Below are positions 3,897-23,485 of a stretch of 64,000 nt of DNA, piece after piece. Origin of the DNA: an uncultured Gammaproteobacteria bacterium (GTDB taxonomy: Bacteria > Patescibacteriota > Patescibacteriia > S139-126). Each line of letters opens with the position of its first letter. Position 1 is the stretch's first letter. The translations under genes were made by a program, and so were the position numbers. The notes beneath the pieces were generated by a model. That model was not told the DNA's origin and did no database searches. It was given only the letters and a program-made list of their open reading frames with translations. Location: assembly GCA_964493305.1 (NCBI GenBank), contig CAZBLW010000002.1, positions 142,812 through 206,811 on the forward strand, written 5' to 3'.

Positions 3897-3966
3897 TTAT
3901 AGGCACTCGGGTCGCTGACCGCTCTCGATTACTCGGGTCATGCCGATAAAAAATTGTCTTGGCGGT
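3897..3966. repeat. Imperfect direct repeat of the tRNA-Ser-proximal junction (attL/attR-like), with a degenerate tRNA 3'-end-like fragment at 3958..3990
   Basis: ttat-aggcactcgggtcgc and ccgataaaaaattgtcttggcgg match 23328..23347 and 23376..23397. The second copy abuts the 3' end of tRNA-Ser. Confidence 0.6.
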
Positions 3967-4329
3967 GATCTCGGGTTAAGTACCCGTGACCTCAATGTTT
4001 ATAAGAGTATTTTAGCACGAAAATAGCTAGACTGACTAGGCATGTGGGTCGGGGTCTGATTTAACCAAAATGCGACAAATGCGACAGTACTTAGGACTTC
4101 TGCTTTTCGGCCTTTCCAATGGCTCTTGCTTGGGCTGTTAAGCCCAATCTAGTTAGGCGTAATATGGATATTCCAAACTCGTTTGCCTCCTCTTTACTAA
4201 GATTTTGGCCATAATCTCGCTTAATAATTCTTTGAAGATCTTGGATCGTTTTCTTTTTTAACCGCATATTATTATTGGTTACTAATAAATTATAAAAATT
4301 TCTAACGCCATTTATAGGATCGCGTAAAA

Positions 4330-5034
4330 GTGATAAAATGTAAATATATGGCCGAGAATTTAATTAAAATAGACGACTTCTCCCAAGAAACACGCAATAA
4401 GATTGTGGAGATTTTAGATATCATTTTATACAAACTTGAGTTATTTCTCGTCACCAATAATGATGCTGAAAAAACTGACCACATTGAAACACCTTTCTTT
4501 TACAAAGAGTATAAACATCTTAGTTTGCACGATGTTAAAAAAGTAACTGAGATTTTAGAAAAGCATTTTGGAAGGCTTGGCTTTAAATTTCCCTTGAGAG
4601 GTATTGATAAAACAAAAGCGACCGCGTCTTGGAAAAACCTTTATGACGAAATTAAAAACTTTCGTGATTCCTTAAAATCCAAGAGGCCGATTCTTTCTGG
4701 TGACAATATAGTAGATATTTTAATTGTAAAACCAAACACCGACAGCAATAATTATTTGGTCGTTGTAAATCAAAAATTCAATACACCTATAAAAGCAGAT
4801 CGCGCTAAACCATCATGGGAATTGTTGTTTCAAATTGCAACCGACAAAGAAGTTACCTATTCCGATAATCATAAAACCAGTTTAGATTTTTTTAACTCAA
4901 ATAAGAGATGTAAGATCTATACTCAAACTGGTTTATCTCTAACTAAAATATTACAAAGAGAAAGTCGAAATATTGTGCCGGCTGTTAGGATTGGGATCAT
5001 AACCGAAAAAGCGTACAAACAAAAAATCGCTTAA
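4330..5034 (+). CDS. Hypothetical protein
   Basis: 234-aa ORF in AT-rich cargo. No recognisable motifs. Confidence 0.4.
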   Translation: MIKCKYMAENLIKIDDFSQETRNKIVEILDIILYKLELFLVTNNDAEKTDHIETPFFYKEYKHLSLHDVKKVTEILEKHFGRLGFKFPLRGIDKTKATASWKNLYDEIKNFRDSLKSKRPILSGDNIVDILIVKPNTDSNNYLVVVNQKFNTPIKADRAKPSWELLFQIATDKEVTYSDNHKTSLDFFNSNKRCKIYTQTGLSLTKILQRESRNIVPAVRIGIITEKAYKQKIA

Positions 5035-5060
5035 GCCAACTTAAAAAGTGGATAAATATG

Positions 5061-5092
5061 AGACCGCTTGAAATAAGCGGTTTTTTCGTATT
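5061..5092 (+). terminator. Rho-independent terminator
   Basis: Hairpin accgcttgaaataagcggt followed by TTTTTT. Confidence 0.6.
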
Positions 5093-5172
5093 TAAAAAAC
5101 ATCATTTCGGCCTAAATTAAGCTCTTTTTTCTTGAAATACTAAAGGTATTAATAAGTTAATCAAATAAAATT

Positions 5173-6501
5173 ATGAGCGACACAAAACTCACAATCGTGG
5201 AAGTTCCGATCAATGAACTTCGGGCATCGGAGTATAACCCAAGAAAACACTCCAAAGAGCAAGCAGATCAACTTAAAGAATCTATAAAACGATTCGGGAT
5301 GGTTGATCCAGTAATTTGTAATATTGCGCCAGACCGCAAAAACGTAATCATCGGCGGCCATTTTAGAGTTGAAGTAGCCAAAGAAATGGGCATGGTAAAT
5401 GTACCAGTGGTCTACGTTCAAATCACTGACCTAGATAAAGAAAAAGAGTTGAATCTTCGCCTAAACAAAAATGTGGGAGAATTTGATCTCGAGTTGCTAG
5501 CAGAATTTGACGAAGCATTTTTAAAAGACGTTGGATTTACCAGCGAAGATATTGATAACATATTCCCGACCGAGGAAAGTGTTGAGATATTTGATATACA
5601 AGGTGAGCTAACAAAAATAGGAATAGATAATATTACCGTTCAAAAAGGAGACATTTATGAGTTAGATGGATCAAGATTAATGTGTGGTGATTCAACCATA
5701 GAATCAGACATGAACACCCTAATGAAAGACGTTAAAGCCGACATGTGCTTTACAGATCCACCATACATTCTAGATTATCTCAAAGGTAAAACCAAACAAA
5801 AAGATGGAGTGACTACAGGTTTTGGTGCTAAAAAAAATCGTCGTTACCTTGAGACCGATGTTTTGCCGGACAACTTTACCGAATTATGGATGAAAAATAT
5901 CAGTAATATAGCCAAAGAAAATTTCGCAATTATCGTATACGAAAACTGGAAAAATATTCGCACCATTTGGAATGAAATGGAAAAGTATTGGCGAGTAAAA
6001 AATATGATTGTATGGCATTTGCCTAACAGGGTCCAAGGGTTCTCCTCTAAATATAGATTTTTCAATAAACATGATATTGCAATAACTGGAGCGACTGATA
6101 GATTTGTTCTAAATGATGAGGACGAGGACGAATTACTTGAAAACGAATACGAAACAGCCCTTTACGCAATAAGTGGTAAACCACACTGGGAATCATATGA
6201 GAAAGGCAAAAAGATTTGCCCGACCGACTTTATTGAGTTCAAGTCGGCTGATGAAAAATCGTCAGGACAAGGAGTAATTTTCGGCACCAAGCCAACCGAG
6301 ATATTAATTCCATACATTAAAGTACTTACAAAGAGAGATGATTTGATTGTAGAGCCATTCGGCGGAAGCGGATCAACATTAATCGCCTCAATTAAAATGC
6401 ATCGCCGCTGTTACCTCATGGAGAAGTGTCCTACCTACGCGCAAGTAATACTAAAACGCTGGGAAAAAGAGACTGGCAAAAAACCGATAAAGATAAACTA
6501 G
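5173..6501 (+). CDS. ParB-like nuclease domain / DNA methyltransferase fusion protein
   Basis: N-terminal ParB/Srx-like domain (EVPINELRASEYNPRKHS...VICNIAPDRKNVIIGGHFRVEVAKEMG). C-terminal methyltransferase with DPPY and FGGSGST motifs. This is the typical phage packaging-module ParB-methylase. Confidence 0.85.
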   Translation: MSDTKLTIVEVPINELRASEYNPRKHSKEQADQLKESIKRFGMVDPVICNIAPDRKNVIIGGHFRVEVAKEMGMVNVPVVYVQITDLDKEKELNLRLNKNVGEFDLELLAEFDEAFLKDVGFTSEDIDNIFPTEESVEIFDIQGELTKIGIDNITVQKGDIYELDGSRLMCGDSTIESDMNTLMKDVKADMCFTDPPYILDYLKGKTKQKDGVTTGFGAKKNRRYLETDVLPDNFTELWMKNISNIAKENFAIIVYENWKNIRTIWNEMEKYWRVKNMIVWHLPNRVQGFSSKYRFFNKHDIAITGATDRFVLNDEDEDELLENEYETALYAISGKPHWESYEKGKKICPTDFIEFKSADEKSSGQGVIFGTKPTEILIPYIKVLTKRDDLIVEPFGGSGSTLIASIKMHRRCYLMEKCPTYAQVILKRWEKETGKKPIKIN

Positions 6502-6502
6502 T

Positions 6503-7021
6503 ATGATCAGGGGCAAGATTAAACAAAAATTACTCAAAGAAATTGAAAAATTCGGCAATGTATATTTGTCTTGCCAAAAAATTGGAGTTGATAAAGCGAC
6601 TTACTATCGCTGGAAAGATAATGATGAAGAATTTAAAAAGCGAGCAGAAAGAGCCGAAGAAATTGGTCGGGAAAATATAGGTGAAGTGGCTGAGTATAGC
6701 CTTTTGCAAAACATAAAAGAAAAGAACCAACGAGCTATTGAGTTTGCTTTGGTTAATGTTTCAAAGAAATACAAACAAGACAGGACTACTAATGTCATAT
6801 TCATGCACAAAAAAGATATAATTCCAGACGTACCTCAAAAAACGATCGAGGACATGCTTGATGAGTATGCAGAAAGACGAAGGATTGAATCTATTGGCAC
6901 TGTGGGCTCAAAACACGAGATGGATAAGCCGCCAGTAATGCTTCAAGAGAATCAAACGCTTTCAGATAATCAGAACTCAAATTCTGCCATTCAGGACATG
7001 AAGCTGGATAGTAGTACTTAG
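6503..7021 (+). CDS. Terminase small subunit-like HTH protein (paralogue of 782..1150)
   Basis: KATYYRWKDNDEEFKK HTH motif in the same position relative to the ParB-methyltransferase gene. Its 3' end overlaps the convergent nuclease gene by 131 bp. Confidence 0.4.
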   Translation: MIRGKIKQKLLKEIEKFGNVYLSCQKIGVDKATYYRWKDNDEEFKKRAERAEEIGRENIGEVAEYSLLQNIKEKNQRAIEFALVNVSKKYKQDRTTNVIFMHKKDIIPDVPQKTIEDMLDEYAERRRIESIGTVGSKHEMDKPPVMLQENQTLSDNQNSNSAIQDMKLDSST

Positions 7022-7943
7022 AAGTTCGATATGACGAAGTATAATATTTGCCGGTTGTTTGAGAGCTTGCTGAAGTTTGAGACGAAGATGAATCAGTTGC
7101 ACTTGAAGTCGTGTCGCCATTGCAGGTATCAAGAGACCATAAGCCTCTCAGATTTTCTTGAGCTGATTTCTGAGCCGCCTTAAAGTTTGCTTGATATTTA
7201 TATGGCGTGTTGTATGTGTATTCGTGAGCATAACCTTGTTCAATCATGTATTTGTTGTAGAACAAACCATCTTCGCGATAAATATATGCAAGGCGACGAT
7301 TGTATTTATCAAATTCACCTTGAGTTGAATCTTTTTCAATTCTAACTTTCTTGCCGATCAATAATTCTTTAGCTTTATTTGAAGCTTCTTTACCAAAACA
7401 TTGAACTGGTTTTCTTGGATCGACTACCTCTGGAGTATCCATGCCGATTAAGCGTAATGTCTCAATCGTACCGCCTATATTCACCTTTATAGTGTCGCCA
7501 TCTACAACGCTTGAAACGGAATAATATTCATATTGTGAATTATTTTGAATTGCTGGAGTCGGAACTGTAGTTGTCTTTTCTGTTTGAGTCGTCTGAACAT
7601 TTTTAGTTTGTTGAGCTTCTGTCTTGGGTTGCTCCTCTGCTGTTGTAGTAGGATGATTTTCAATGACTACCTCAGGGTTATTGATTTGCGTTGATTCCTT
7701 GTTTTCACTTTCAACAGAAGCACTCTCATTGCTGATTGGCTTTTCTGTTTTCGGAGTAGTTATACCGATACCAAAGAAAGAAACAATTATTATTGCAGAA
7801 CAAACAATCGCAATGGTTTTCCTTTTAGGAATAATTTTAATTGCCCGTTTAAAAACAGACGGCTTAATTAATCCGACAATTAAAGAGATGATTGATAGCA
7901 ATAATGTTAATAAAAATATGTAGGTCATATGGTTGGAAAACAA
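6891..7943 (-). CDS. Membrane-anchored thermonuclease (staphylococcal nuclease/SNase-like domain) with an S/T-rich C-terminal tail
   Basis: N-terminal TM segment and T/Q-rich linker. SNase motifs VVDGDTIKV...LRLIGMDTPE...YNRRLAYIY. Confidence 0.7.
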   Translation of the reverse strand: MFSNHMTYIFLLTLLLSIISLIVGLIKPSVFKRAIKIIPKRKTIAIVCSAIIIVSFFGIGITTPKTEKPISNESASVESENKESTQINNPEVVIENHPTTTAEEQPKTEAQQTKNVQTTQTEKTTTVPTPAIQNNSQYEYYSVSSVVDGDTIKVNIGGTIETLRLIGMDTPEVVDPRKPVQCFGKEASNKAKELLIGKKVRIEKDSTQGEFDKYNRRLAYIYREDGLFYNKYMIEQGYAHEYTYNTPYKYQANFKAAQKSAQENLRGLWSLDTCNGDTTSSATDSSSSQTSASSQTTGKYYTSSYRTSKYYYPASCPEWQNLSSDYLKAFDSLEALLAAYPSRVLSPQCQ

Positions 7944-7944
7944 A

Positions 7945-7972
7945 AAACCAGCTGTCTTATAGCTGGCGATAG
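7945..7972 (-). terminator. Rho-independent terminator (minus-strand orientation)
   Basis: ccagctgtcttatagctgg hairpin. Read on the minus strand it is followed by TTTTTTG. Confidence 0.5.
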
Positions 7973-7978
7973 AGATAT

Positions 7979-8165
7979 GTGTGGATACACAGAACCCCGC
8001 GCCAGCTAGACCTTACGGTCCCATACCAGTTTCCCGATATGACCCATGGAAGAGTCGCTGAACGCGGGGTTCAGTATCTTCGTTGGGTTTTCCCGACCAT
8101 ATCCTTTGGGGAAACCAAAGGGGTTAGGTCGCTGGCCTTTCGACCAGTAATATTAAATTGTTAAG
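7979..8165 (-). ncRNA. Candidate structured non-coding RNA (unclassified)
   Basis: About 190 nt of locally GC-rich sequence in an AT-rich intergenic region, with nested inverted repeats: gaaccccgcg/cgcggggttc (10 bp), cctttgg/ccaaagg around a ggaaa loop, cgacc/ggtcg, and gccagc..gacc/ggtc..gctggc. A minus-strand intrinsic terminator lies immediately downstream. Strand and identity are uncertain. Confidence 0.25.
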
Positions 8166-8331
8166 TACATTTTACCAGAAAATCCAAAGGATTTAAAGGC
8201 CTCTGTACTTTAGCTTAATAACAGGGGTTTGCGAAGTCGAGTTACCAACAGCTAAATTCTGTGAATATTGGAATTTAATATGTCCATATTTTTGATTTTG
8301 TGATAAAATAATTATAGAGAAATTCAATCTT

Positions 8332-8958
8332 ATGAAGATAAAAATGTCTTATCAAATTACACCAACAAATGACTCAATGATACGAGTTGTTTTGAGAAAA
8401 AAATTAGAGAAAAAACACGCTAAGGATAAACACGTTAGAATTATAGATGAATTAGGATTGCATCATGGTGATGCAAGGGTTGATATTGCCGTGGTGAATG
8501 GTGTTATGCATGGATATGAAATAAAAAGTGATCAAGACACTCTATTTAGGTTACCTGAACAAATTCAAGTATATAATTCTGTGTTTGATAAAATGACACT
8601 CGTAGTTGGTAAAAGTCATTTATACGAAGCAATAAAGATTGTTCCTGATTGGTGGGGCGTCGTAGTCGCGAAAACAGATACTAATGGAAATGTTATTTTT
8701 AACACTATCAGGAAAGAGGAAACCAATAAGGCGCAAAATCAGTTGTCTGTAGCAAGACTTCTTTGGAGAGAGGAAGCCCTTAGAATTCTCGAGGATATTG
8801 ACGAAGCAAAGGGATTACGTTCCAAGCCTAGAGATTTAATTTATACTAAATTATCTACTGTTTTAGATCAGAAAACTTTAAACAAAAAAGTTAGAGAGAC
8901 AATTTTCTTTAGGACAGATTGGCGATCTGAGTCGCCGCTACTGTCATATGGTGGTTAA
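8332..8958 (+). CDS. Hypothetical protein with PD-(D/E)xK nuclease-like motif (possibly sce7726-like)
   Basis: GDARVDIAVV...GYEIKSD matches the D...ExK arrangement of the restriction-endonuclease fold. 208 aa. The family assignment is from memory and unverified. Confidence 0.4.
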   Translation: MKIKMSYQITPTNDSMIRVVLRKKLEKKHAKDKHVRIIDELGLHHGDARVDIAVVNGVMHGYEIKSDQDTLFRLPEQIQVYNSVFDKMTLVVGKSHLYEAIKIVPDWWGVVVAKTDTNGNVIFNTIRKEETNKAQNQLSVARLLWREEALRILEDIDEAKGLRSKPRDLIYTKLSTVLDQKTLNKKVRETIFFRTDWRSESPLLSYGG

Positions 8959-10027
8959 TGCCAGCCACTAACCATGTTTCCGTGCTTCCAGTGCCTTTAA
9001 TATCTACTCCTTTATTTTTTTCTTCCATATATTTAGGAAAATGTTTAGCTTTTTCGGCAATATGTTTATCGCCTGAGCTAAAATCTTCACCATAATATCG
9101 ATTGTCTTTTATTAATTCAGCGGCACTAGCTAAATATAATTCGAATTTTTGTCTTTTTCCTTTCATTATTAACCAATTTTCATCCAGTGTATATTTTATA
9201 CTTGAGGTGGGATGAAAGAATTGAGAGATTTCTTCATATATAGGATATTGAATAGTATAATCGGAAAAGGACGGCTTTCTTTGAACACTTGCATTAGAAT
9301 ATAGTTCCTTCCATTTTTTCCATTCAATACGAGGAATCAGGTTCTCTTCATCAATTTTGCATTGCGACAAGTCTTTTGGAAAAGCGCTACCAGAGAAAAT
9401 AAAAGTTCTCCATTTTAATAAATCAACAATATTTTGACTGAGTTCAAAATATTTTTTATATTTTTCCCCATCTCCCTCAAGCTCTTTTATATCCACCAAT
9501 AAGTCGATGCTGTTTTTATCTATCTTGTTTTTTGAAATAAAATCGGCAATGTCGCTATTTAATTTAGTTAAATCAGAAAAATCTGAACATACTAATCGTA
9601 AGCAAAGACCGCTTTTTATTTCATTGGCCAATGAGCAGACTGTGTCTTTTATCTCAGCATCATCATTTAAATGAACAACTGGAATAAAGATAGCCTGTTT
9701 TTTATTACCTGCCATTAAAATTGATTTTATGCTATCAATTTTTAGTTCGGTGGTGAACAATAAACTAAAATCAACAAAAATAGGACTCTTACCCCAAACT
9801 TCAATTATTCTATCCGGGATCAAGGGTAGTAGTTTTTTGAATTTTGTTACAACGCTCTCCAAAGTATCCTGGGGTTTTTGTTTCGGCATAACAAATTGGA
9901 TCAGTGGGGTAATATTTTTTTTATTTTCCTCAGCCAAACTCTCTAAAGCTCCTTGTTCGGCTCGTTTCCATTTCAATATTGGTATGTAGTGTTTCGAATT
10001 AAACATATTATTTAGTCCATTTTTCAT
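8909..10027 (-). CDS. Hypothetical protein, third gene of the higB / XRE-ImmA operon (possibly Beta-protein/sce7725-like)
   Basis: 372-aa ORF whose start overlaps the stop of the upstream peptidase gene by 20 bp. No confident motif. Its size and its adjacency to the PD-(D/E)xK protein resemble the sce7725/sce7726 pair, but that match is from memory. Confidence 0.35.
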   Translation of the reverse strand: MKNGLNNMFNSKHYIPILKWKRAEQGALESLAEENKKNITPLIQFVMPKQKPQDTLESVVTKFKKLLPLIPDRIIEVWGKSPIFVDFSLLFTTELKIDSIKSILMAGNKKQAIFIPVVHLNDDAEIKDTVCSLANEIKSGLCLRLVCSDFSDLTKLNSDIADFISKNKIDKNSIDLLVDIKELEGDGEKYKKYFELSQNIVDLLKWRTFIFSGSAFPKDLSQCKIDEENLIPRIEWKKWKELYSNASVQRKPSFSDYTIQYPIYEEISQFFHPTSSIKYTLDENWLIMKGKRQKFELYLASAAELIKDNRYYGEDFSSGDKHIAEKAKHFPKYMEEKNKGVDIKGTGSTETWLVAGINHHMTVAATQIANLS

Positions 10028-11240: not shown

Positions 11241-11512
11241 TTATCATATTCTTTATGAGTACCAATTTTTTCAACTAAAATTATCTTATTTTTATAATTG
11301 ACCGTGGTCAGCAACCTATACTTATTCCAACAAAAATTAAATACAACTTGCAGACCACCGACGAAGCTTGCCTTAGGATACCTCGACTTTAATTGGTGGG
11401 GAGTATCCCATTGAGCTTCCTCAACTTCCGCTTCCCATGACTCAATACTAGGCTTAGCATCGGCGTGTCTAGCTTTAAAATCGTGCAGTGTTGTTTTTCC
11501 TAGTAACTTCAT
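11225..11512 (-). CDS. higB: HigB-family type II toxin (RelE/ParE superfamily mRNA interferase)
   Basis: C-terminal ...VNYKNKIILVEKIGTHKEYDKW resembles the E. coli HigB/YgjN signature (...CYIREVMTHKEYD). 95 aa. First gene of the operon. Confidence 0.6.
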   Translation of the reverse strand: MKLLGKTTLHDFKARHADAKPSIESWEAEVEEAQWDTPHQLKSRYPKASFVGGLQVVFNFCWNKYRLLTTVNYKNKIILVEKIGTHKEYDKWNLN

Positions 11513-11625: not shown

Positions 11626-11654
11626 TTTTGTATAAAATTAACTGAATTTTTAGA

Positions 11655-17322: not shown

Positions 17323-17330
17323 ATGCTTTT

Positions 17331-18539
17331 CTATTTGTTTGGTTTTACCCTAACCTTACCGCTCAACAAATCCTGCATCAGACCTTTTTTTAGCTTTATT
17401 AATGTCTCTTTGTACTTGGTATTAACTGAAATTTTTTCATCTGTTGAAGAAAGAATATCAGCAATCTTTTTTTGTTCGTTTTTCGGTGGCACTTTGATCA
17501 AAAGTGGATTTAATTTTTCTAGATTTATATTTTTCTGAGCAGATTGGGTGGAAATACTATTCAAGTATTCCTTTTGTGTTCGGAGATAATATTCTAGATA
17601 TATGGGATCAATTATTTCTGAGGGAGTAATACCTATCAAGCTATCTGGAAAGCATGAATCAAATTGTAATATTCCAGTGTCACCAATATTTGCCGCGATA
17701 GTAATAACTATTGTACCTTTCTTAAATAATCTGCTAACAGATAACCCTTTTTCATTTAGAGTTTGAGTATATGAAGAAATTTTGCCATTTGAATTAACAA
17801 CATCTCCTGTTTGAATAAAAGGAATATTGCCCCCATAAAATTCAGGAGCATTACGTGGTCGATGAGAAAACTTTCCACGCTCTACAGTCGCAATTTCAGA
17901 TAATTTTAAAATGTTCCATTCCTCGGGAATGGTGCCAATTGCTGTCTTTTTAAAATTTTTATGCCCAATACCCCTTATAAGGAGATCCTGCATCAATCCA
18001 TTTTTTAACTCTGTTGTTTGTTCTATGATGGAGTCTATTTTTTTAACCTCATCATCAACAGATGTTAATATCTCTACAATTCTCTTTTGCTCAGTCAAAG
18101 ACGGTTCCAAAACCTCGTACATTTTTCGTATCACACTTGGGTGTGCTTTTGTTTGATAGTCGAACTTAAAAAAAGAGTGCTCCCAGTCCAAAAGAAAAAA
18201 TAAGTACTTGTATATCAATCTGTCTTTTTTAAGAATACGTAATATTCCACTAACATTGGTCACTGAAAACTTATGTTTTGGTCGGTAAAAAAAATTACCA
18301 CCTCCATCAACTGACCACGTTATTAACTCTTCATCAAACATGAAAGGGTTGTATCTTCCAAACAAGGCTTCCTTATGAACTGAAGAAGAATATATGGGAT
18401 TATCACCTGGATTATTCCGAATATCATTTTTTGAAATTACATTTCCACGCGTTAATTCAATAACACCCGATGCAATATAATCATCGAGAAGCGAATGCCT
18501 CCAGTCATTGGGTATTGTTTTTTGATCTATTGCTCGCAT
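17331..18539 (-). CDS. hsdS: Type I R-M specificity subunit (HsdS)
   Basis: Two TRD halves each followed by the conserved LMQDLL repeat regions (KNGLMQDLLIRG, KKGLMQDLLSGKV). Confidence 0.85.
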   Translation of the reverse strand: MRAIDQKTIPNDWRHSLLDDYIASGVIELTRGNVISKNDIRNNPGDNPIYSSSVHKEALFGRYNPFMFDEELITWSVDGGGNFFYRPKHKFSVTNVSGILRILKKDRLIYKYLFFLLDWEHSFFKFDYQTKAHPSVIRKMYEVLEPSLTEQKRIVEILTSVDDEVKKIDSIIEQTTELKNGLMQDLLIRGIGHKNFKKTAIGTIPEEWNILKLSEIATVERGKFSHRPRNAPEFYGGNIPFIQTGDVVNSNGKISSYTQTLNEKGLSVSRLFKKGTIVITIAANIGDTGILQFDSCFPDSLIGITPSEIIDPIYLEYYLRTQKEYLNSISTQSAQKNINLEKLNPLLIKVPPKNEQKKIADILSSTDEKISVNTKYKETLIKLKKGLMQDLLSGKVRVKPNK

Positions 18540-18540
18540 G

Positions 18541-20286
18541 TTAATAATTTAATTCAGAAAGAAAACCGTCTAATTTCTTATTTATTGATTCGCGCTCTTT
18601 TTCAAGAGATTTCAGTTCCGTCCATACAGTTTTTACGTTTATAAATTCTTTATCTTCTGATGAATCAATATACTGACTTATGTTTAAGTTGTAATCATTT
18701 TCAGTGATTTCCTTTATATCAACTACCCGAGTATATTTTTCAATATCGGAATATCCATCGTATGCTTTTACGATTTTATTTATATCTTGTGGTCGTAAAG
18801 AATTCTGATTTTTTCCCTCAAGAAAATCTTTTTCTGCATCAATAATCAAAACCTTATTCTTTTTGTTTTCTGGCTTGTTTTTATTGAGGATAAGAATAGC
18901 CGCTGGGATGCCCGTGCCATAGAAAAGTTTAGCTGGTAAAGCAATAACAGCTTCAATTAAATCATTCTTAAGAATTTGCTCACGAATACGACCTTCGGCA
19001 CCACTACGGAATAAAACACCATGCGGAAGAACAATGCCAGCTCGGCCGTTTACATTCATCGATTTAATAATATGCAAAACAAAAGCATAGTCGGCATTTT
19101 TTTCTGGAGGCATATCATAACCTTCAAGTCGACCATATTTATTTGTCTTAAATATTTCTGATTCCCAGTCCTTGATCGAGTAGGGTGGATTTGCAACGCA
19201 GATATCAAATGTTTGCAAATTGCCATTTTGTGTTAGAAATTGAGGATTCGCGATTGTATCGCCACGACGAATATCAGCACTATCAAGACCGTGCAAAAAC
19301 ATATTAATTTTTGCAATAGCAAAAGTACTGATATTTAATTCTTGTCCGTAGAGATAAAGTGTTTTAGCAATTTTCTCGCCAGATTTTTGCTTTAGATAGT
19401 CGTATGCTTCAAGCAGGAAACCGCCTGATCCAGCCGTTGGGTCATAAATGTGATCTTTTTGATGAGGCTTTAAAATTCCGATGATAACTTTTTCAACTTC
19501 ACGAGGTGTGTAGAACTCTCCACCTTTTTTCCCTGCATCTGCGGCGAATTGTTTAATGAGATATTCATAGGCATCACCTAAAAGATCGGAACTGATATAG
19601 GTGTTACCAAAATTATATTGAGAAAAATGATTGATAAGTCTTTGAAGTGTTTCGTTTGGAAAACGATCTCTGTTTGAGAAATCAAGATCATCAAAAATTT
19701 TGTCCAGTTTCGGACTATTGGCATTAGCAAGTTTTTCAAAAATATCATTTAACTTTTGACCGATACTTTCCGCTTGTTCGGTAATAACATTCCATCTACA
19801 ATCTTTTGGAACTTGAAAACGGTGGTTATAGTCAGCGCCGGCAATTGTCTTATCGTTATACTCTTTCATTATCGACTCGTACTCTTCGTCCCACACATCA
19901 CTCATTCTTTTATAAAACAAAAGCCCGAAGATGTATTTTTTATAATCCGAGCTGTCTATTTTTCCTCGAAGGATGTCGGCACTCTTCCAAAGAAAAGCTT
20001 CAAGCTGAGGTAAGGTAAGTTTGCTACCCATTTTATCCACGATCGCTTGAATATCCTGTGGGCGATATTTGCGATCTTTGCGTGGACCAACTCTAAGGGG
20101 AACAAGTGTGCCGTCCTTTTCCCAGTTTCTTAAAGTATCTTGGTGGATGCTAAAAATCTCTGCTACCTGACCGATAGAGAGTAACTCTGGCATTCCTTTG
20201 AGTTTTTCTTGGATGTCTTTTCTCATATTGTTTAATATAAGTCTATCAGACTCCAAATATAAAGTCAAATGTTCATAGGTTTTCAT
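18541..20286 (-). CDS. hsdM: Type I R-M methyltransferase subunit (HsdM) with N-terminal excisionase/MerR-type HTH extension
   Basis: HsdM N-terminal domain (LEAFLWKSADILRG) and N6-adenine methyltransferase motif NPPY (VANPPYS). An extra ~85-aa N-terminus has an HTH_17-like sequence (LSIGQVAEIFSIHQDTLRNWEKDGTLVPLRVG). Confidence 0.9.
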   Translation of the reverse strand: MKTYEHLTLYLESDRLILNNMRKDIQEKLKGMPELLSIGQVAEIFSIHQDTLRNWEKDGTLVPLRVGPRKDRKYRPQDIQAIVDKMGSKLTLPQLEAFLWKSADILRGKIDSSDYKKYIFGLLFYKRMSDVWDEEYESIMKEYNDKTIAGADYNHRFQVPKDCRWNVITEQAESIGQKLNDIFEKLANANSPKLDKIFDDLDFSNRDRFPNETLQRLINHFSQYNFGNTYISSDLLGDAYEYLIKQFAADAGKKGGEFYTPREVEKVIIGILKPHQKDHIYDPTAGSGGFLLEAYDYLKQKSGEKIAKTLYLYGQELNISTFAIAKINMFLHGLDSADIRRGDTIANPQFLTQNGNLQTFDICVANPPYSIKDWESEIFKTNKYGRLEGYDMPPEKNADYAFVLHIIKSMNVNGRAGIVLPHGVLFRSGAEGRIREQILKNDLIEAVIALPAKLFYGTGIPAAILILNKNKPENKKNKVLIIDAEKDFLEGKNQNSLRPQDINKIVKAYDGYSDIEKYTRVVDIKEITENDYNLNISQYIDSSEDKEFINVKTVWTELKSLEKERESINKKLDGFLSELNY

Positions 20287-20346
20287 AGGTCTGTATAGTA
20301 GCTTAACCCTGAAAATACGGGTAATTTACTTGTCTACAGGTTATCT

Positions 20347-20396
20347 ACTCGGGACGCTCTGGACTCCTTTGGGGATTGGCGTCATTCATTAGATAT
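20347..20396 (+). repeat. Conserved sequence upstream of recombinase copy 2 (second copy of 2457..2507)
   Basis: Identical 22-mer actcgggacgctctggactcct at 20347..20368. Confidence 0.6.
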
Positions 20397-21722
20397 ATGA
20401 AAATAACAGCCCCAAAGGGCTATGAGGTGGCCCAAATACAGCCTCAAACGGTCAAAGTTAGGTATTGCCTGTATGCCCGTAAATCAACAGAATCGGAGGA
20501 AAGACAGGTACTTTCCATTGATTCGCAGATAAAAGAGATGCTTCAGCTCGCTGAAAGAGAGAATTTGGAGGTGGTTTGTATGAAGCGTGAGAGTCATTCA
20601 GCCAAGGAAACTGGACAAAGACCGGTCTTTAACGAGATCATTGAAGAAATACGAGTCAAGAAGTATAACGCTATCCTCACCTGGGCACCCGATCGTATTT
20701 CAAGAAATGCCGGGGACTTAGGAAAGATTGTGGATTTGATGGATGCAGGACTTCTACAAGAAATCAGAACCTACGGACAAAAGTTTTCAAACAATCCAAA
20801 TGAAAAATTCTTGCTGATGATTCTTGGATCACAGGCAAAACTTGAAAATGATAACAGAGGCGTAAATGTAAAACGCGGACTACGAACAAGAGTGGAAATG
20901 GGATTGTGGCCAGGAGTGGCACCGCTCGGATATTTGAATCAAAACTTAATGGATAAGAAATGCCAAGTGATTATTGATCCGCAACGTGCGTCGACAATTA
21001 AGAAAATGTTTGAGAAAGTGGCGTATGAACATTACTCAGGTAGAAAACTATATAATTGGTTACGCCATGAACTTAATTTCTATACCCGAGGAAACAAACC
21101 ATTAACACTGAGTGGAATATATAGAATCTTGGATAATCACTTCTATTACGGAACGTTTGAATCGCCGAAAGGTAGTGGTAATTGGTATCAAGGAAAACAC
21201 GCACCGATCATAACACAAGAATTATTTGAAAAAGCTCAAGCGCAACTAAAACGAGATAATATACAGCGCGAAAATAAAGAATTTGCCTTTACTAAACTAT
21301 TCACTTGCGGATACTGTGGAAGTGGAATATCTGCCGAAGAAAAATGGAAACAACTCAAAGATGGAACGCACGCAAAATACATCTACTACTCTTGTAGTAG
21401 AGCGAGAGATAGAAACTGTAAAAATCACTATATACGAGAAGAAGATTTAATAACCGAATTACTTAAAATACTGGATAAAGTAAACATTAATGAGTTGGGT
21501 ATGAGACAAAAATTGGAAGATGAGATAGCGAGATTCAATATTTTTCAAAGATCGGTACTTGGTGCAACGGAAAAGATTAAAAATAACCAAGATACTGATA
21601 TACGAAACTTCGCCAAGTATATTTTGAAAGAAGGTACAGTTGGCGAGAAAAGAGAGCTACTGGCGAATCTGAGATCGAGAATAATTTACAAAGACAAACA
21701 ACTTACGCTGATTGAGGAATAA
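20397..21722 (+). CDS. Large serine recombinase (paralogue of 2508..3848)
   Basis: The same domain set as copy 1: resolvase domain, recombinase domain and zinc ribbon. About 80% aa identity. ATG start chosen by alignment with copy 1. The ORF-track start at 20376 is a TTG. Confidence 0.85.
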   Translation: MKITAPKGYEVAQIQPQTVKVRYCLYARKSTESEERQVLSIDSQIKEMLQLAERENLEVVCMKRESHSAKETGQRPVFNEIIEEIRVKKYNAILTWAPDRISRNAGDLGKIVDLMDAGLLQEIRTYGQKFSNNPNEKFLLMILGSQAKLENDNRGVNVKRGLRTRVEMGLWPGVAPLGYLNQNLMDKKCQVIIDPQRASTIKKMFEKVAYEHYSGRKLYNWLRHELNFYTRGNKPLTLSGIYRILDNHFYYGTFESPKGSGNWYQGKHAPIITQELFEKAQAQLKRDNIQRENKEFAFTKLFTCGYCGSGISAEEKWKQLKDGTHAKYIYYSCSRARDRNCKNHYIREEDLITELLKILDKVNINELGMRQKLEDEIARFNIFQRSVLGATEKIKNNQDTDIRNFAKYILKEGTVGEKRELLANLRSRIIYKDKQLTLIEE

Positions 21723-21761
21723 TAAAAATACACGAGTTGATCGTGTATTTTATTTAACTAT

Positions 21762-22229
21762 TTAGATATGTATAGCTTGCTTAATAGCTGATTCTAGTTC
21801 GCTTGGAACATCTGTTCCTATGCGATAAATTTTTCCATTTCTCATGATTATTTCTACCGCATCAAAACCAGAAACATTGTAAATACATATACGTGGCCAA
21901 AACCAAACCCTCAAACCCCAGCCGTAATACCAATGATTCTTTACTTGCTTGACTGATGCAATTTCACTTAATAGAAACTTTTTTCTAAAAAGTCCATAAC
22001 CAAATTTAATTCCAATATATTTTTCATCAATAGATACCGTTAGCGTTGTAACTGATGAAAGAGTAAACAAAATTAAAACCATTATGGCCGTAACGAGAAA
22101 ATTTGCGCCAGAATCAGTAGATGGTGGCTCAGATCTTACCGTATACTGAGCCCATGCAAAAAGAACCAGCACAGCTAATGTGACTATTATCATCAGGTAT
22201 CCAATTTGAGTGTGTTTATATGAAGTCAT
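21762..22229 (-). CDS. Hypothetical membrane protein (two TM + possible bacterial PH-like domain)
   Basis: ORF with two hydrophobic segments. No catalytic motifs. Confidence 0.35.
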   Translation of the reverse strand: MTSYKHTQIGYLMIIVTLAVLVLFAWAQYTVRSEPPSTDSGANFLVTAIMVLILFTLSSVTTLTVSIDEKYIGIKFGYGLFRKKFLLSEIASVKQVKNHWYYGWGLRVWFWPRICIYNVSGFDAVEIIMRNGKIYRIGTDVPSELESAIKQAIHI

Positions 22230-22232
22230 ATT

Positions 22233-23042
22233 TTAATTAATTGTCTGCACTATCCGATCAACAGTGGAATCAATATCAAAAGCTTCTCTTTCATTGGTGC
22301 ATGCTTTTCTTGGTTCCTCGTCGTAATTATTACAATTAGGATATTGTAGAGTAAAATTAATTTTTATAAGTTTGCCATTCTTAGCGATAGTGTAAACATA
22401 GGAGGAATAAACACTACCGGCCGCACCCTCGTTTTTTATGTTTACACAATAAGTTCTGTCATCAACCATCCTCTCCGAAGTTATATCCGACATACTACTT
22501 ACTTCCTGTGGTGTAGTTTTACATGAATATGTTCCAGTCTCAATTTTTATACTCGGTGGCCATTCCGTAACGCTTACATATTTCGCCAATAACTCTTTCG
22601 GATATTGAAACGTTATGCCCTGATCATTAGTGGTCGTTGTCCATAGATTATGGTTGGAATTATTGTTGTTTTCAGTAATAGTCCAGAGCGAATAATAGCG
22701 ACTGTAATATCTGTGAGTAGCAACGGCGGTTTGTCCTGTTGTAGACTTAAAAAAATAACCGGAACCCATTTGCTCGGTGAATTCGTATCCCTTGGCTTTC
22801 ATAAAATCATGTATCACAGTCCCGTTTTTACTTTCGGTCATAAATTTGCTATCCGAACCCGACAACTTCACGATATCACTATCGCTAAATTTTAATTTAA
22901 CTATGCCCTTAATCTGTGGCCAAGGATTGCCTTCTTGAAAAATTACTGAGGAATATAAAGATAGAAAAATACCTGCAATTAAAATGATTGCGGAGACAAG
23001 CAATAATATCTTTTTATTTTTTGAGGAATGTTCAAAAATCAT
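22233..23042 (-). CDS. Hypothetical membrane-anchored/secreted protein
   Basis: N-terminal hydrophobic anchor. N/T/S-rich and Cys-containing extracytoplasmic region. Confidence 0.35.
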   Translation of the reverse strand: MIFEHSSKNKKILLLVSAIILIAGIFLSLYSSVIFQEGNPWPQIKGIVKLKFSDSDIVKLSGSDSKFMTESKNGTVIHDFMKAKGYEFTEQMGSGYFFKSTTGQTAVATHRYYSRYYSLWTITENNNNSNHNLWTTTTNDQGITFQYPKELLAKYVSVTEWPPSIKIETGTYSCKTTPQEVSSMSDITSERMVDDRTYCVNIKNEGAAGSVYSSYVYTIAKNGKLIKINFTLQYPNCNNYDEEPRKACTNEREAFDIDSTVDRIVQTIN

Positions 23043-23047
23043 AGTGA

Positions 23048-23230
23048 CTATTTTTTATTCTTGCCTCTGATCACAATAACAACAGTGGCAATAATTAGAA
23101 TAAGACCTATTCCTTGTAATCCAGGGCTATCGTCAAATTCACCAAATACAATAAAAAATACTCCCAATAATATTGCTAAAACTTTTGGGATCCAATATAA
23201 GATCTTGGTTTTTATATTAGAGTTGTTCAT
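23048..23230 (-). CDS. Small hypothetical membrane protein
   Basis: 60-aa ORF with two hydrophobic helices. Confidence 0.25.
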   Translation of the reverse strand: MNNSNIKTKILYWIPKVLAILLGVFFIVFGEFDDSPGLQGIGLILIIATVVIVIRGKNKK

Positions 23231-23327
23231 TCACTTATATTATATCTCAAAAATTGACTTTATTAAAGAACCACTTTTTTACAAAAATAAAAATAGCGAT
23301 CACAAAGTCGTTGTTTTTATTTACAAT

Positions 23328-23397
23328 TTATTAGGCACTCGGGTCGCACATTCGTCATAGACAAATGGGTTGACTCCGATAATAAATTGTCTTGGCG
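23328..23397. repeat. tRNA-proximal copy of the att-like direct repeat
   Basis: Matches 3897..3966 at both ends. Overlaps the 3' end of tRNA-Ser. Confidence 0.6.
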
Positions 23398-23485
23398 GAG
23401 AGGGAGGGATTCGAACCCTCGATAGGGATTTAAACTCCTATAACAGGTTAGCAACCTGCCGCCTTCAGCCACTCGGCCACCTCTC
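23392..23485 (-). tRNA. tRNA-Ser (anticodon GCT), class II with long variable arm, CCA encoded
   Basis: Reverse complement folds into a cloverleaf: GGAGAGG acceptor, anticodon loop UUGCUAA, T-arm GAGGGUUCGAAUCCCUC, 3' CCUCUCCGCCA. Confidence 0.8.

What the first reader, a model, noticed from the sequence alone, without database searches (positions are those of the whole stretch)
3897..23485. tRNA-Ser(GCT) 3'-end integration site with an imperfect direct repeat 19.4 kb away: tandem integrated elements
The sequence abutting the 3' end of tRNA-Ser (23328..23397) is repeated at 3897..3966. Its two ends match (20/21 and 22/23 nt) and a ~28-nt middle diverges. The upstream copy continues into a degenerate tRNA 3'-end-like fragment: T-arm-like cggg/tacttaa/cccg followed by GATCACC-G-CCA.

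This is the signature of site-specific integration into a tRNA gene. The second boundary marks where a further element, running from position 1 to 3966 and carrying TerL and a recombinase, has integrated in tandem. Everything from 1 to about 23391 therefore looks accessory, and GC content changes visibly at the boundaries.
Basis: seen in the sequence. Interest (0 to 1): 0.6.

Follow-up and report, generated by a model that had tools for sequence, protein, structure and literature searches.

The report
Tandem serine-recombinase islands at tRNA-Ser
Two related mobile defence islands, each with its own large serine recombinase, sit one behind the other at the 3' end of a tRNA-Ser gene; this matters because serine recombinases were long thought not to target tRNA genes.

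Summary
The repeat is real. TAGGCACTCGGGTCGC (16/16) and CCGATAAWAAATTGTCTTGGCGG (22/23) each occur only at about 3900-3965 and 23332-23398.

The tandem-integration reading is supported, with corrections.
- Both copies are the conserved right end of two related elements. Each ends with its own large serine recombinase: LSR1 2508-3848 and LSR2 20397-21722, 81% identical. No tyrosine integrase is present.
- E2 spans about 3962-23398 (19,433 bp). E1 spans from before position 1 to 3965.
- The tRNA-like piece at 3962-3990 is E2's own conserved left arm, not a displaced host fragment.
- In other assemblies, an identical E1 joins directly to a tRNA 3' end.
- A 78%-identical relative (L117) has an empty tRNA-Ser site, with homology starting exactly at 23393.
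- In 61 of 80 related loci, mostly Patescibacteria, the recombinase is followed by an opposite-strand tRNA-Ser.
- Only GCGG is common to all junctions, which fits a serine-type short crossover.
- Cargo is anti-phage defence: PD-Lambda-2, and Type I R-M with a PrrC-like ATPase.
- GC changes only at the E1/E2 boundary.

This looks like a new variant of a known kind: tRNA-targeting serine integrases that build tandem island arrays.

The parts
1..3965 (+). E1, right-hand 4 kb of an integrative island of at least 13 kb. GC is 43.4%. The left end lies off the window.
   Evidence: (L119, L124) extend it upstream through a LexA/S24 repressor, an Eco57I-like R-M, a C5 methyltransferase and an Alw26I-like restriction enzyme. 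One search shows contigs 100% identical to window 1-3965 that then join a tRNA 3' end.
18..785 (+). C-terminal part of the E1 ParB-N6/N4 DNA methyltransferase. The gene starts before the window.
   Evidence: Pfam N6_N4_Mtase, 1.4e-20. The full 438-aa gene with a ParB_N domain is seen in L119.
782..1150 (+). E1 terminase small subunit-like protein.
   Evidence: PHROG terminase small subunit, 3.6e-08. Pfam HTH_Tnp_1_2.
1062..2426 (+). E1 terminase large subunit. The ORF list gives 1062-2426 (454 aa); the Logan gene call is 435 aa (L119 8612-9919, about window 1119-2426).
   Evidence: Pfam Terminase_6N, 2.6e-10. PHROG 2 terminase large subunit, 5e-34. 435-aa gene call.
2450..2500 (+). Conserved box upstream of LSR1 (repeat D6). 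It holds ACTCGGGAC and the inverted repeat GACGC..GCGTC. Probably the promoter, operator or 5' UTR of the recombinase gene.
   Evidence: 82% identical to 20340-20390. Motif hits. Sequence.
2508..3848 (+). LSR1, the large serine recombinase of E1 (446 aa).
   Evidence: Pfam Resolvase + Recombinase + Zn_ribbon_recom. The exact protein is on Logan contigs. Nearest relatives are L048 at 92% and L049 at 90%, against 81% to LSR2.
3882..3961 (+). E1 right end: terminator tail, GGGTC box A (3905-3913), variable hairpin, GGGTC box B (3931-3939), then CCGATAAAAAATTGTCTTG.
   Evidence: The same architecture appears in about 45 loci abutting tRNA-Ser. L041:11772-11829 is 95% identical and abuts tRNA-Ser(GGA).
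3962..3965 (.). GCGG common core, copy 1, at the E1|E2 junction. This is the inferred crossover region.
   Evidence: GCGG is the only sequence shared by native left junctions, right junctions and tandem junctions. Identity of the E1-tRNA contigs to the window ends at 3965.
3966..4094 (+). E2 left end. It holds the tRNA T-arm/acceptor mimic (TGATCTCGGG-TTAAGTA-CCCG), a conserved 130-nt region, and two octamers ATGCGACA at 4070-4077 and 4079-4086.
   Evidence: 87% identical to L005:246-378, where it abuts unrelated flank DNA. 75% identical to L016:8999-9112. The GGTTAAGTACC motif occurs in 16 places across the loci.
4091..4267 (-). 58-aa ORF at the E2 left end, function unknown.
   Evidence: Called gene in L119 and L127. 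Translation.
4348..5034 (+). 228-aa ORF, function unknown.
   Evidence: No Pfam, PHROG or PADLOC hit. Exact copies in L126 and L127.
5173..6501 (+). E2 ParB-N6/N4 DNA methyltransferase, a homologue of the E1 gene.
   Evidence: Pfam ParB_N + N6_N4_Mtase. Repeats D2 and D5. About 11-13 of the 80 loci match this region.
6503..7021 (+). E2 terminase small subunit-like protein. No large subunit follows it.
   Evidence: PHROG terminase small subunit, 7.8e-09.
6891..7943 (-). SNase-domain nuclease.
   Evidence: Pfam SNase, 1.4e-23. PADLOC SNc+LTD, 4e-44.
8008..8130 (-). LOOT RNA (Rfam RF03000), part of the conserved core of this element family.
   Evidence: 71.2 bits against a gathering score of 46.4. 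Also found about 160 nt upstream of the recombinase in L005 and L015.
8254..20339 (-). 12-kb defence cargo block, inserted between the LOOT region and the recombinase promoter box when compared with L005. Contents: P4 cII-like ORF 8332-8958 (+); PD-Lambda-2 C/B/A at 8909-10027, 10008-11240 and 11225-11512; YgjP 11655-12224; hsdR 12227-15139; PrrC-like/PDC-S06 ATPase 15136-17322; hsdS 17331-18539; hsdM 18541-20286.
   Evidence: Pfam. PADLOC. In L005 the sequence matching window 8253 abuts the D6 box directly.
20340..20390 (+). Conserved box upstream of LSR2 (repeat D6).
20397..21722 (+). LSR2, the large serine recombinase of E2 (441 aa).
   Evidence: Pfam Resolvase + Recombinase + Zn_ribbon_recom. 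Closest solved structure is SPbeta SprA/YokA, E 1.6e-12.
21762..23230 (-). Three ORFs of unknown function between LSR2 and the right end: 21762-22229, 22233-23042 and 23048-23230.
   Evidence: Shared with L006 at 75%.
23314..23394 (+). E2 right end: GGGTC box A (23337-23345), hairpin CATTCGTC-ATA-GACAAATG, box B, then CCGATAATAAATTGTCTTG.
23395..23398 (.). GCGG common core, copy 2, at the E2|tRNA junction. On the tRNA strand this reads CCGC: the last two bases of the acceptor stem, the discriminator G, and the first C of CCA.
23393..23486 (-). Intact tRNA-Ser(GCT), the integration target.
   Evidence: ARAGORN. Rfam. The sequence matches the tRNA at the empty site in L117.

Best explanation
Positions 1..23398 hold two related integrative islands in tandem at the 3' end of a tRNA-Ser(GCT) gene. 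Each island carries its own large serine recombinase (LSR) at the end facing the tRNA.

**Layout**
- E2 is 19,433 bp, from the GCGG core at 3962-3965 to the GCGG core at 23395-23398. It lies between E1 and the tRNA.
- E1 runs from before position 1 to 3965.

**Element ends**
- The right end is conserved: two GGGTC boxes flank a variable hairpin, followed by CCGATAnnAAATTGTCnnG.
- The left end is also conserved. It starts with GCGG and imitates the tRNA acceptor/T-arm in sequence spacing.

**Inferred mechanism**
- The recombinase pairs the circular element's attP (right end + left end) with a site made of the tRNA-Ser 3' end plus whatever lies downstream.
- It exchanges strands inside GCGG.
- The element supplies the bases that follow the crossover on the tRNA strand (up to the discriminator, and the CCA end when it is encoded), so the tRNA gene stays intact.
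- The downstream half of the target is not conserved and the tRNA half is regenerated. The site therefore stays usable, and new elements insert between the tRNA and the resident island. This builds tandem arrays.
- The E1|E2 junction therefore has the structure of an attP.

**Cargo and nature.** The cargo is mostly anti-phage defence. The shared backbone (repressor, ParB-methyltransferase, small terminase, with or without large terminase, SNase, LOOT RNA) suggests phage-derived or satellite-like islands.

**Shown versus inferred**
- Shown: element ends, presence/absence polymorphism of E2, the empty site in a relative, and the family-wide association with tRNA-Ser.
- Inferred: catalysis by the LSR, the exact crossover bases, the order of arrival, and the mode of transfer between cells.
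For: 1. Two LSR genes with the full Resolvase + Recombinase + Zn-ribbon architecture lie in the same orientation and are 81% identical. No tyrosine integrase appears among the ORFs of 80 aa or more that were scanned in 1-23392.
2. A relative, L117, is syntenic at 78% from exactly window 23393 onward (tRNA-Ser, comF-like gene, clpB, M48 peptidase). On the other side of its tRNA it has a hairpin and ABC-transporter/MarR genes, which have no homologue in the window.
3. Contigs 100% identical to window 1-3965 (L120/L124 from SRR31189354, L121 from SRR35272830) continue into ...TTGTCTTGGCGG|AGAGGGAGGGATTCGAACCCTCG. That is E1 joined directly to a tRNA 3' end. The E1|E2 junction is reproduced in L119 and L125.
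4. L005 carries a single homologous element. Its left end (87% to window 3962-4094) abuts unrelated DNA, and its right end abuts tRNA-Ser(GCT).
5. 61 of 80 genome loci with a relative of LSR2 have a tRNA-Ser on the opposite strand downstream. In 16 of them it lies 113-126 nt after the stop codon. None has a tRNA-Ser upstream. 73 of the 108 tRNAs in these loci are tRNA-Ser.
6. About 45 right ends share the same architecture. Left-end mimics lie 0.4-9.7 kb upstream of the recombinase in 10 loci, and are fused to a right end in L016, L033, L090 and L127.
7. Flanks next to GCGG are unrelated in native left junctions. The 2-3 bases before CGG differ between elements at right junctions. This fits a very short crossover.
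8. LSR1 and LSR2 each have closer relatives elsewhere, 92% and 98% respectively, with matching right-end subtypes. E1's GC is 7 points above both host and E2.
Against: - There is no direct evidence of excision or circular forms for these two elements.
- E1's left end and the host flank beyond it are outside the window and were not reached. The outer boundary of the whole insertion is therefore inferred from L117 only.
- The E1-tRNA contigs stop 20-27 nt into the tRNA. It is not proven that they come from the same host or the same tRNA gene.
- Some Logan assemblies (SRR9016293/4) may come from the same reads as the window and would not be independent.
- I saw no clear dyad symmetry between the two arms of the inferred attP, which is unusual for LSR sites.
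- Insertion into a site whose outer half is another element's arm is not standard LSR behaviour.
- The conserved right end reaches about 70 nt from the crossover, further than a typical LSR attP arm.
Confidence: 0.85

Rival explanations
1. The mobile unit is a minimal recombinase cassette: the upstream box, the LSR gene, optional small cargo, and the right end (2450..3965 and 20340..23398). It hops between or into pre-existing islands. On this view the rest of 3966-20339 is not part of the same element.
For: - Apart from the methyltransferase/small-terminase genes, homology between E1 and E2 is confined to this block.
- The motif ACTCGGGWC flanks both LSR genes on both sides: 5 hits against 0.19 expected.
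- Near-identical recombinases (96-98%) sit beside different cargo in L003-L007.
- A 12-kb cargo block ends exactly at the upstream box.
Against: - E2 as a whole, from its left-end mimic onward, is what is missing in the E1-tRNA contigs.
- L005 has the same left end about 9.7 kb upstream of its recombinase, with the same backbone genes.
- Left-end mimics occur upstream of the recombinase in 10 loci, at varying distances.
- The upstream box is continuous with the LOOT region in L005 and L015.
- Cargo differences are more simply explained by modular recombination inside the elements.
Confidence: 0.07
2. There is one composite island or prophage in which the recombinase gene and its downstream region were duplicated in place. 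The 3966 'boundary' would then be an internal duplication scar, not a junction between two elements.
For: - The two recombinases point the same way, and the repeat is a direct repeat.
- Both halves carry ParB-methyltransferase and small terminase homologues.
Against: - The recombinases are only 81% identical, and each has closer relatives in other genomes (92% and 98%) with matching right-end subtypes.
- GC is 43.4% against 35.7%.
- E1 is found joined to a tRNA end without E2.
- An E2-type left end is found behind a third, different element in L127.
Confidence: 0.04
3. This is a classical tRNA-gene island made by a tyrosine integrase. The long direct repeat would be the duplicated att core, and the upstream tRNA-like piece a decayed displaced fragment of the host tRNA.
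For: - The general pattern, an intact tRNA at one end and a tRNA-like fragment 19.4 kb away, is the signature used by Islander-type searches (PMC4383910).
Against: - No tyrosine integrase domain was found in any ORF scanned in 1-23392.
- Only GCGG is shared by all junction types.
- The 'fragment' has the loop TTAAGTA instead of a T-loop. It is conserved as such in elements from many different hosts, so it belongs to the element.
- The 70-nt repeat lies outside the tRNA and is element DNA.
Confidence: 0.02

Closest known systems
SCC / SCCmec cassettes of staphylococci (CcrAB/CcrC large serine recombinases)
   Same: - Large serine recombinases insert islands site-specifically at the 3' end of a conserved housekeeping gene without inactivating it.
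- The site stays usable, so tandem arrays of independent cassettes build up.
- Many of those cassettes carry anti-phage defence genes (PMC11470126).
   Different: - The target here is a tRNA gene, not rlmH.
- Each element has one recombinase, not a CcrA/CcrB pair.
- The element arm imitates the tRNA end.
- The hosts are mostly Patescibacteria MAGs.
- The backbone has phage packaging-type genes.
- Sequence relationship to Ccr proteins was not tested.
Phage and ICE large serine integrases (phiC31, Bxb1, A118, SPbeta SprA, TnpX)
   Same: - The Resolvase + Recombinase + zinc-ribbon architecture is the same.
- SPbeta SprA/YokA is the closest solved structure.
- The recombinase gene sits next to one attachment site.
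- The sequence shared by the junctions is very short.
   Different: - According to the reviews read here, known examples target protein-coding genes or intergenic sites, often disrupting them (PMC5704250). They were stated not to specify tRNA genes (PMC4383910, 2014).
- Similarity to SprA is weak (E 1.6e-12).
- No dyad symmetry was evident in the inferred attP.
- Conserved accessory boxes extend about 70 nt into the right arm.
tRNA-gene genomic islands of tyrosine integrases (Islander-type islands, tycheposons, PICI-like elements)
   Same: - Integration is at the 3' end of a tRNA gene, and the gene is restored by element sequence.
- Tandem arrays form at one tRNA gene.
- The islands carry defence and other cargo, small-terminase-type genes and a repressor (PMC4383910; 10.1101/2020.12.28.424599).
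   Different: - The recombinase family is unrelated.
- There is no long tRNA-identical direct repeat; only GCGG plus a mimic that matches at 15 of 27 positions.
- One recombinase lineage uses all tRNA-Ser isoacceptors (anticodons gct, tga, gga, cga) across many host lineages.

Membership tests
Large serine recombinase (serine integrase) elements | N-terminal resolvase catalytic domain followed by a Recombinase domain and a zinc-ribbon domain | tested here: met
   - LSR1: PF00239 1e-18, PF07508 5e-15, PF13408 2.2e-09.
- LSR2: PF00239 1e-17, PF07508 2.7e-13, PF13408 7.3e-10.
- PHROG 95 integrase, 2e-65.
- Weak match to SPbeta SprA.
Large serine recombinase (serine integrase) elements | Junctions share only a very short core (2-bp crossover) rather than a long direct repeat | tested here: inconclusive
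   Only GCGG is common to native left junctions, right junctions and tandem junctions. This fits a short crossover, but the dinucleotide itself cannot be fixed from sequence.
Large serine recombinase (serine integrase) elements | attP and attB of about 40-50 bp with imperfect dyad symmetry around the crossover | tested here: not met
   By eye, the right arm (CCGATAATAAATTGTCTTG) and the left arm (GCGGTGATCTCGGGTTAAGTACCC) show no clear inverted symmetry. No formal test was run.
Large serine recombinase (serine integrase) elements | Recombinase-catalysed integration and excision, with a directionality factor for excision | not testable with these tools
   There is only indirect evidence: E2 is present in some assemblies and absent in others. 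No directionality factor was identified.
tRNA-gene genomic islands (Islander definition) | Intact tRNA gene at one island end | tested here: met
   tRNA-Ser(GCT) at 23393-23486. It matches the tRNA at the empty site in L117.
tRNA-gene genomic islands (Islander definition) | Displaced fragment of the same tRNA gene at the other end | tested here: not met
   The piece at 3962-3990 matches the tRNA end at only 15 of 27 positions. Its loop is TTAAGTA, and it is conserved as an element sequence in many hosts.
tRNA-gene genomic islands (Islander definition) | Tyrosine-family integrase gene on board | tested here: not met
   No Phage_integrase hit in any ORF scanned in 1-23392.
SCC-like tandem cassettes | Integration at the 3' end of rlmH by Ccr recombinases | tested here: not met
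   The target is tRNA-Ser. No rlmH lies at the junction.
SCC-like tandem cassettes | Independent cassettes in tandem, separated by att-like sites and enriched in defence genes | tested here: met
   - The E1|E2 junction is present in some assemblies, while E1 joins a tRNA end directly in others.
- Tandem junctions also occur in L016, L033, L090 and L127.
- Defence cargo is shown.
Intact prophage | Capsid, portal and tail genes | tested here: not met
   - In E2 there are no structural-gene hits in Pfam, or in PHROGs for the ORFs up to 10027.
- In E1 only the small and large terminase genes are seen within 13 kb. Its remainder was not seen.
Phage satellites (PICI / P4-like) | Integrase, repressor, packaging-redirection gene(s), no structural genes, dependence on a helper phage | tested here: inconclusive
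   - A repressor (LexA/S24) is present in E1 and in L005.
- Small-terminase-like genes are present.
- A P4 cII-like ORF is present.
- No replication module was recognised.
- Helper dependence cannot be tested here.

The most novel reading that the evidence does not exclude
This recombinase belongs to a large, previously undescribed clade of large serine integrases that specialise in the 3' ends of tRNA genes.
- The main target is tRNA-Ser, across all isoacceptors.
- A 98%-identical copy abuts tRNA-Asp.
- Relatives at 45-64% identity abut tRNA-Glu, Gln, Asp, Asn and Trp.

They would recognise essentially one half-site, the tRNA acceptor/T-arm, which the element's own left arm imitates. Because the tRNA half is regenerated on integration, they would assemble tandem arrays of defence islands. 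They would also move at up to 98% protein identity between distant Patescibacteria lineages, making them a main vehicle of gene exchange in these small-genome bacteria.
Probability: 0.45. Interest if true: 0.75.

Novelty: new variant of a known kind. Interest (0 to 1): 0.62.

Why it matters
- **It challenges a working rule.** The rule that only tyrosine integrases target tRNA genes is stated in PMC4383910. Island finders that rely on a tRNA-identical repeat plus a tyrosine integrase would miss these elements.
- **It is widespread.** Nearly all are Patescibacteria MAGs, and identity reaches 98% across lineages given different candidate-phylum names. That points to a major, active route of horizontal transfer of defence systems in bacteria with very small genomes.
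- **It is of practical interest.** A serine integrase whose target is a near-universal, short, conserved tRNA end is an attractive candidate for host-independent genome insertion.
- **It gives the LOOT RNA a genomic home**, inside a mobile element.

Tried and rejected
- **Consensus hairpin in the right end.** RNAalifold on 44 aligned right ends predicted no consensus structure, because the hairpin shifts register between sequences. Folding each 27-nt middle alone gave only a modest mean z of -1.2 in tRNA sense and -1.0 in recombinase sense. Hairpin potential is recorded as a weak observation, not a claim.
- **Exact-protein look-ups with the ORF listing start codons.** These failed for LSR2. 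My own ATG guess at 1155 for the large terminase also failed. Corrected ATG starts at 2508 and 20397 worked.
- **E1's left end.** I could not reach it. The furthest accessible flank, 11.7 kb upstream of LSR1, still lies inside E1.
- **Literature.** Searches found no description of a serine integrase targeting tRNA-Ser or of this family in Patescibacteria. They also found nothing useful on the LOOT RNA. Absence from this library is not proof of novelty.
- **Rejected readings.** I considered and rejected in-place duplication, a tyrosine-integrase island, and a recombinase-only cassette. Details are under the rival explanations.
- **Assembly chimera at the repeat.** Also considered and judged unlikely, because the E1|E2 junction recurs in a different run (L125, SRR31189353).

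Full report
**1. The observation**

ARAGORN and Rfam place an intact tRNA-Ser(GCT) on the minus strand at 23393-23486, so its 3' end is at 23393.

The sequence just outside that 3' end is repeated 19.4 kb upstream in two blocks:
- TAGGCACTCGGGTCGC at 3900-3915 and 23332-23347, 16/16 identical.
- CCGATAAWAAATTGTCTTGGCGG at 3943-3965 and 23376-23398, 22/23 identical.

Each pattern has only these two matches in the window, even with two mismatches allowed, and none in 100 shuffles. The repeat finder reports the same blocks as D12 and D8. The two blocks are one base out of register, and the roughly 27-nt middle differs.

After 3965 the upstream copy continues as GCGG-TGATCTCGGG-TTAAGTA-CCCG. This has the same spacing as the reverse complement of the tRNA end, GCGG-AGAGGGAGGG-ATTCGAA-CCC.

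**2. What surrounds it**

Immediately upstream of each repeat copy, on the plus strand, lies a large serine recombinase gene with Resolvase, Recombinase and zinc-ribbon domains:
- LSR1 at 2508-3848.
- LSR2 at 20397-21722, with three small unknown ORFs between it and the repeat.

The two proteins are 81% identical. A 51-nt box just upstream of each gene is also conserved (2450-2500 and 20340-20390, 82%). No tyrosine integrase domain appears in any ORF scanned in 1-23392.

The motif ACTCGGGWC occurs five times in the window against 0.19 expected. All five are on the plus strand, in the flanks of the two recombinase genes.

Gene content of the two elements:
- Left of 3966: the C-terminal part of a ParB-methyltransferase, a small terminase and a large terminase.
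- Between 3966 and 20340:
  - two unknown ORFs;
  - a homologous ParB-methyltransferase and a small-terminase-like gene;
  - an SNase-domain nuclease and a LOOT RNA (Rfam RF03000);
  - a P4 cII-like ORF;
  - a complete PD-Lambda-2 system (A, B and C);
  - YgjP;
  - a Type I restriction-modification system with a PrrC-like/PDC-S06 ATPase between hsdS and hsdR.

**3. Evidence from other genomes: the recombinase family targets tRNA-Ser**

The best 80 are 70-98% identical and come almost entirely from Patescibacteria MAGs carrying many different candidate-phylum names.
- In 61 of these 80 loci the recombinase is followed by a tRNA-Ser on the opposite strand (anticodons gct, tga, gga, cga and 'act'). 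In 16 loci the tRNA lies just 113-126 nt after the stop codon.
- No locus has a tRNA-Ser upstream. 73 of the 108 tRNAs in the loci are tRNA-Ser.
- Most of the 19 loci without one simply end soon after the gene.
- About 45 loci share the same right-end architecture next to the tRNA:
  - a terminator;
  - a GGGTC(G/A)C box;
  - a roughly 20-nt segment of variable sequence that often forms a hairpin;
  - a second GGGT box;
  - (C)CGATAnnAAATTGTCnnG, followed directly by CGGAG of the tRNA.

That also explains why its two ends match while its middle differs.

**4. The left end**

The segment 3962-4094 is 87% identical to L005:246-378. L005 is a 906-kb Magasanikbacteria contig, and this segment lies 9.7 kb upstream of that locus's recombinase and abuts unrelated DNA.

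L005 then carries, in order:
- the same ParB-methyltransferase, small-terminase-like gene, SNase and LOOT block, running straight into the recombinase's upstream box;
- the recombinase;
- a PrrC-like gene;
- the right end;
- tRNA-Ser(GCT).

So L005 holds a single element of the E2 type. Compared with it, window 8254-20339 is an extra 12-kb defence block.

The left-end motif GCGG(T/G)(G/C)-N8-TTAAGTACC occurs on the plus strand upstream of the recombinase in ten loci, at 0.4-9.7 kb. It is fused to a right end, giving a tandem junction, in L016, L033 and L090. The bases to the left of GCGG are unrelated in the native junctions.

The loop is TTAAGTA, not a T-loop, and it is conserved across elements from different hosts. 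The tRNA-like piece is therefore an element-borne mimic, not a decayed host fragment.

**5. Presence and absence of E2, and the empty site**

- Logan contigs carrying exactly LSR1 show two states. L119 (SRR9016294, 100% identical to window 1-13848) and L125 (SRR31189353) have the E1|E2 junction as in the window.
- L120/L124 (SRR31189354) and L121 (SRR35272830) are 100% identical to window 1-3965. They then continue AGAGGGAGGGATTCGAACCCTCG, which is a tRNA 3' end.
- L127 (SRR35272830) has an E2-type left end behind the right end of a third element that carries ArsR-thioredoxin-ArsP cargo.
- A metagenome contig, L117, is 78% identical to window 23393-28341, with homology starting exactly at the tRNA's CCA end. 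On the other side of its tRNA it has a hairpin and convergent ABC-transporter, FtsX and MarR genes, which have no homologue in the window.
- Logan contigs carrying the neighbouring comF-like gene end exactly at the discriminator base. This fits sequence heterogeneity at that point, but it could also reflect shared tRNA k-mers.

Together these results show three things. E2 is a discrete unit of 19,433 bp. E1 is a separate element. Everything left of 23393 is accessory.

**6. Crossover and mechanism (inferred)**

- Comparing E1|tRNA, E1|E2 and E2|tRNA limits the exchange to AAATTGTCTTGGCGG.
- Across loci only GCGG is constant. At right junctions the 2-3 bases before CGG differ between elements (TGG, ATG, AGG, CTG), and at native left junctions the flank is unrelated.
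- On the tRNA strand GCGG reads CCGC: the last two acceptor-stem bases, the discriminator G, and the first C of CCA. The non-palindromic GG is the most likely crossover dinucleotide for a serine recombinase. This rests on general knowledge of that family and was not tested here.
- The element replaces the last few tRNA bases, so the gene stays intact. The tRNA matches the one at the empty site in L117.
- The downstream half of the target is not conserved. A tRNA end followed by a resident element's right end should therefore still serve as a target, which would explain tandem arrays with the newest element next to the tRNA.
- The same final arrangement would also arise if E1 had instead inserted at E2's distal junction. 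The order of arrival is therefore not settled.

**7. Independent origin of the two elements**

- LSR1's nearest relatives in the loci are L048 (92%), L049 (90%), and L043 and L041 (89%). These carry the same right-end subtype, with two ACTCGGGTC boxes 26 nt apart. LSR2's nearest relatives are 96-98% identical.
- GC is 43.4% for E1, 35.7% for E2 and 36.4% for the host side.

An in-place duplication is therefore unlikely.

**8. Nature of the elements and the host**

- E1, extended through L124, carries a LexA/S24 repressor, an Eco57I-like R-M enzyme, a C5 methyltransferase, an Alw26I-like restriction enzyme, a ParB-methyltransferase, small and large terminases, and LSR1.
- No capsid, portal or tail genes were found in E2, nor in the 13 kb of E1 that could be seen.
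- I regard both as phage-derived or satellite-like defence islands. How they move between cells is unknown.
- On the host side there is a ribosomal protein operon in which S5 is followed directly by L15, with no L30 gene. As far as I know this is typical of Patescibacteria, and it fits the distribution of the recombinase family.

**9. Comparison with known systems**

- The recombinases meet the domain definition of large serine integrases. SPbeta SprA is the closest solved structure, though only weakly similar.
[quoted passage not shown] A 2017 review describes serine-recombinase elements as inserting within protein genes with very short repeats (PMC5704250).
- Seven literature searches found no description of this family. 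Large automated catalogues may nevertheless contain such cases.
- The closest functional analogue is SCC/SCCmec. There, Ccr serine recombinases insert at the 3' end of rlmH, and tandem cassettes enriched in defence genes accumulate (PMC11470126).
- More distant relatives of this recombinase (45-64% identical, from viral contigs) abut tRNA-Glu, Gln, Asp, Asn and Trp in the same geometry. A 98%-identical copy abuts tRNA-Asp, whose end is also TGGCGGA. The tRNA-targeting habit may therefore be a property of the whole clade.

**10. Verdict**

- The corrections concern the recombinase family, the meaning of the repeat (homologous element ends, not an att duplication), the origin of the tRNA-like piece (the element's own arm), and the GC claim.
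- Tandem islands at a tRNA gene are ordinary in themselves. The interest lies in the serine-recombinase mechanism, the tRNA-mimicking arm, and the very wide spread of the family in Patescibacteria.

Noticed in passing
window 8008-8130 (-); L005 9721-9842 (-); L015 9720-9840 (-): A LOOT RNA (Rfam RF03000; 71-83 bits against a gathering score of 46.4) is part of the conserved backbone of these elements. In L005 and L015 it lies about 160 nt upstream of the recombinase gene on the opposite strand, next to an SNase-domain nuclease gene. I found no useful literature on its function.
   Followed up: partly
window 8909-11512 (-): A complete three-gene PD-Lambda-2 anti-phage system: A is a HigB-like toxin (11225-11512), B is an M78 peptidase (10008-11240, PADLOC 1e-142), and C is the 'Beta protein' (8909-10027).
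   Followed up: partly
window 12227-20286 (-); L005 11399-13570: A Type I R-M operon (hsdM, hsdS, hsdR) has a 728-aa AAA_13 / PDC-S06 / PrrC-like ATPase between hsdS and hsdR, the layout of the E. coli prr locus. In L005 a 75%-identical copy of this ATPase gene sits alone between the recombinase and the right end.
   Followed up: partly
window 2450-2500 and 20340-20390: The conserved box upstream of both recombinase genes holds ACTCGGGAC, the same motif as the GGGTC boxes of the right end and the CTCGGGT of the left arm. It also holds an inverted repeat, GACGC..GCGTC. This may be an operator through which the recombinase regulates its own gene.
   Followed up: no
window 4070-4086; L016 about 9150-9170: Two octamers spaced 9 nt apart, ATGCGACA ATGCGACA, lie at the inner edge of the left end. 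In L016 both copies read ATGAGACA, so the two copies change together. They may be a protein-binding site, for example for a directionality factor.
   Followed up: no
window 23348-23366 and 3917-3939; alignment A1: The divergent middle of the right end often forms a 7-8 bp hairpin of different sequence in different elements. In several cases it is more stable on the tRNA-sense strand because of G-U pairs. The mean z-score is only -1.2, and no consensus structure was found.
   Followed up: partly
L004 1616-1771; L093, L104, L105, L108, L109, L113, L114: A recombinase 98% identical to LSR2 abuts a tRNA-Asp(GTC) whose 3' end also reads TGGCGGA. Relatives at 45-64% identity abut tRNA-Glu, Gln, Asp, Asn and Trp, some again about 125 nt after the stop codon. 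This suggests a whole clade of tRNA-targeting serine integrases.
   Followed up: partly
window 48022-49004: Ribosomal protein S5 is followed 5 nt later by L15 and then SecY, with no L30 gene. As far as I know this is typical of Patescibacteria (CPR). A protein with a Por_Secre_tail sorting domain lies at 32178-33062.
   Followed up: partly
L001 end, L002 end (= window 23396); L122/L123 ends (= window 23413/23421): Independent short-read assemblies break inside or exactly at the end of the tRNA-Ser gene from both sides. This is expected if several different sequences follow this tRNA end within the sampled population.
   Followed up: no
window 8332-8958 (+): An ORF matching PADLOC 'cll' (5e-29) and carrying a precomputed Pfam Phage_P4_cII hit, which hints at a link to P4-like satellites.
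   Followed up: no
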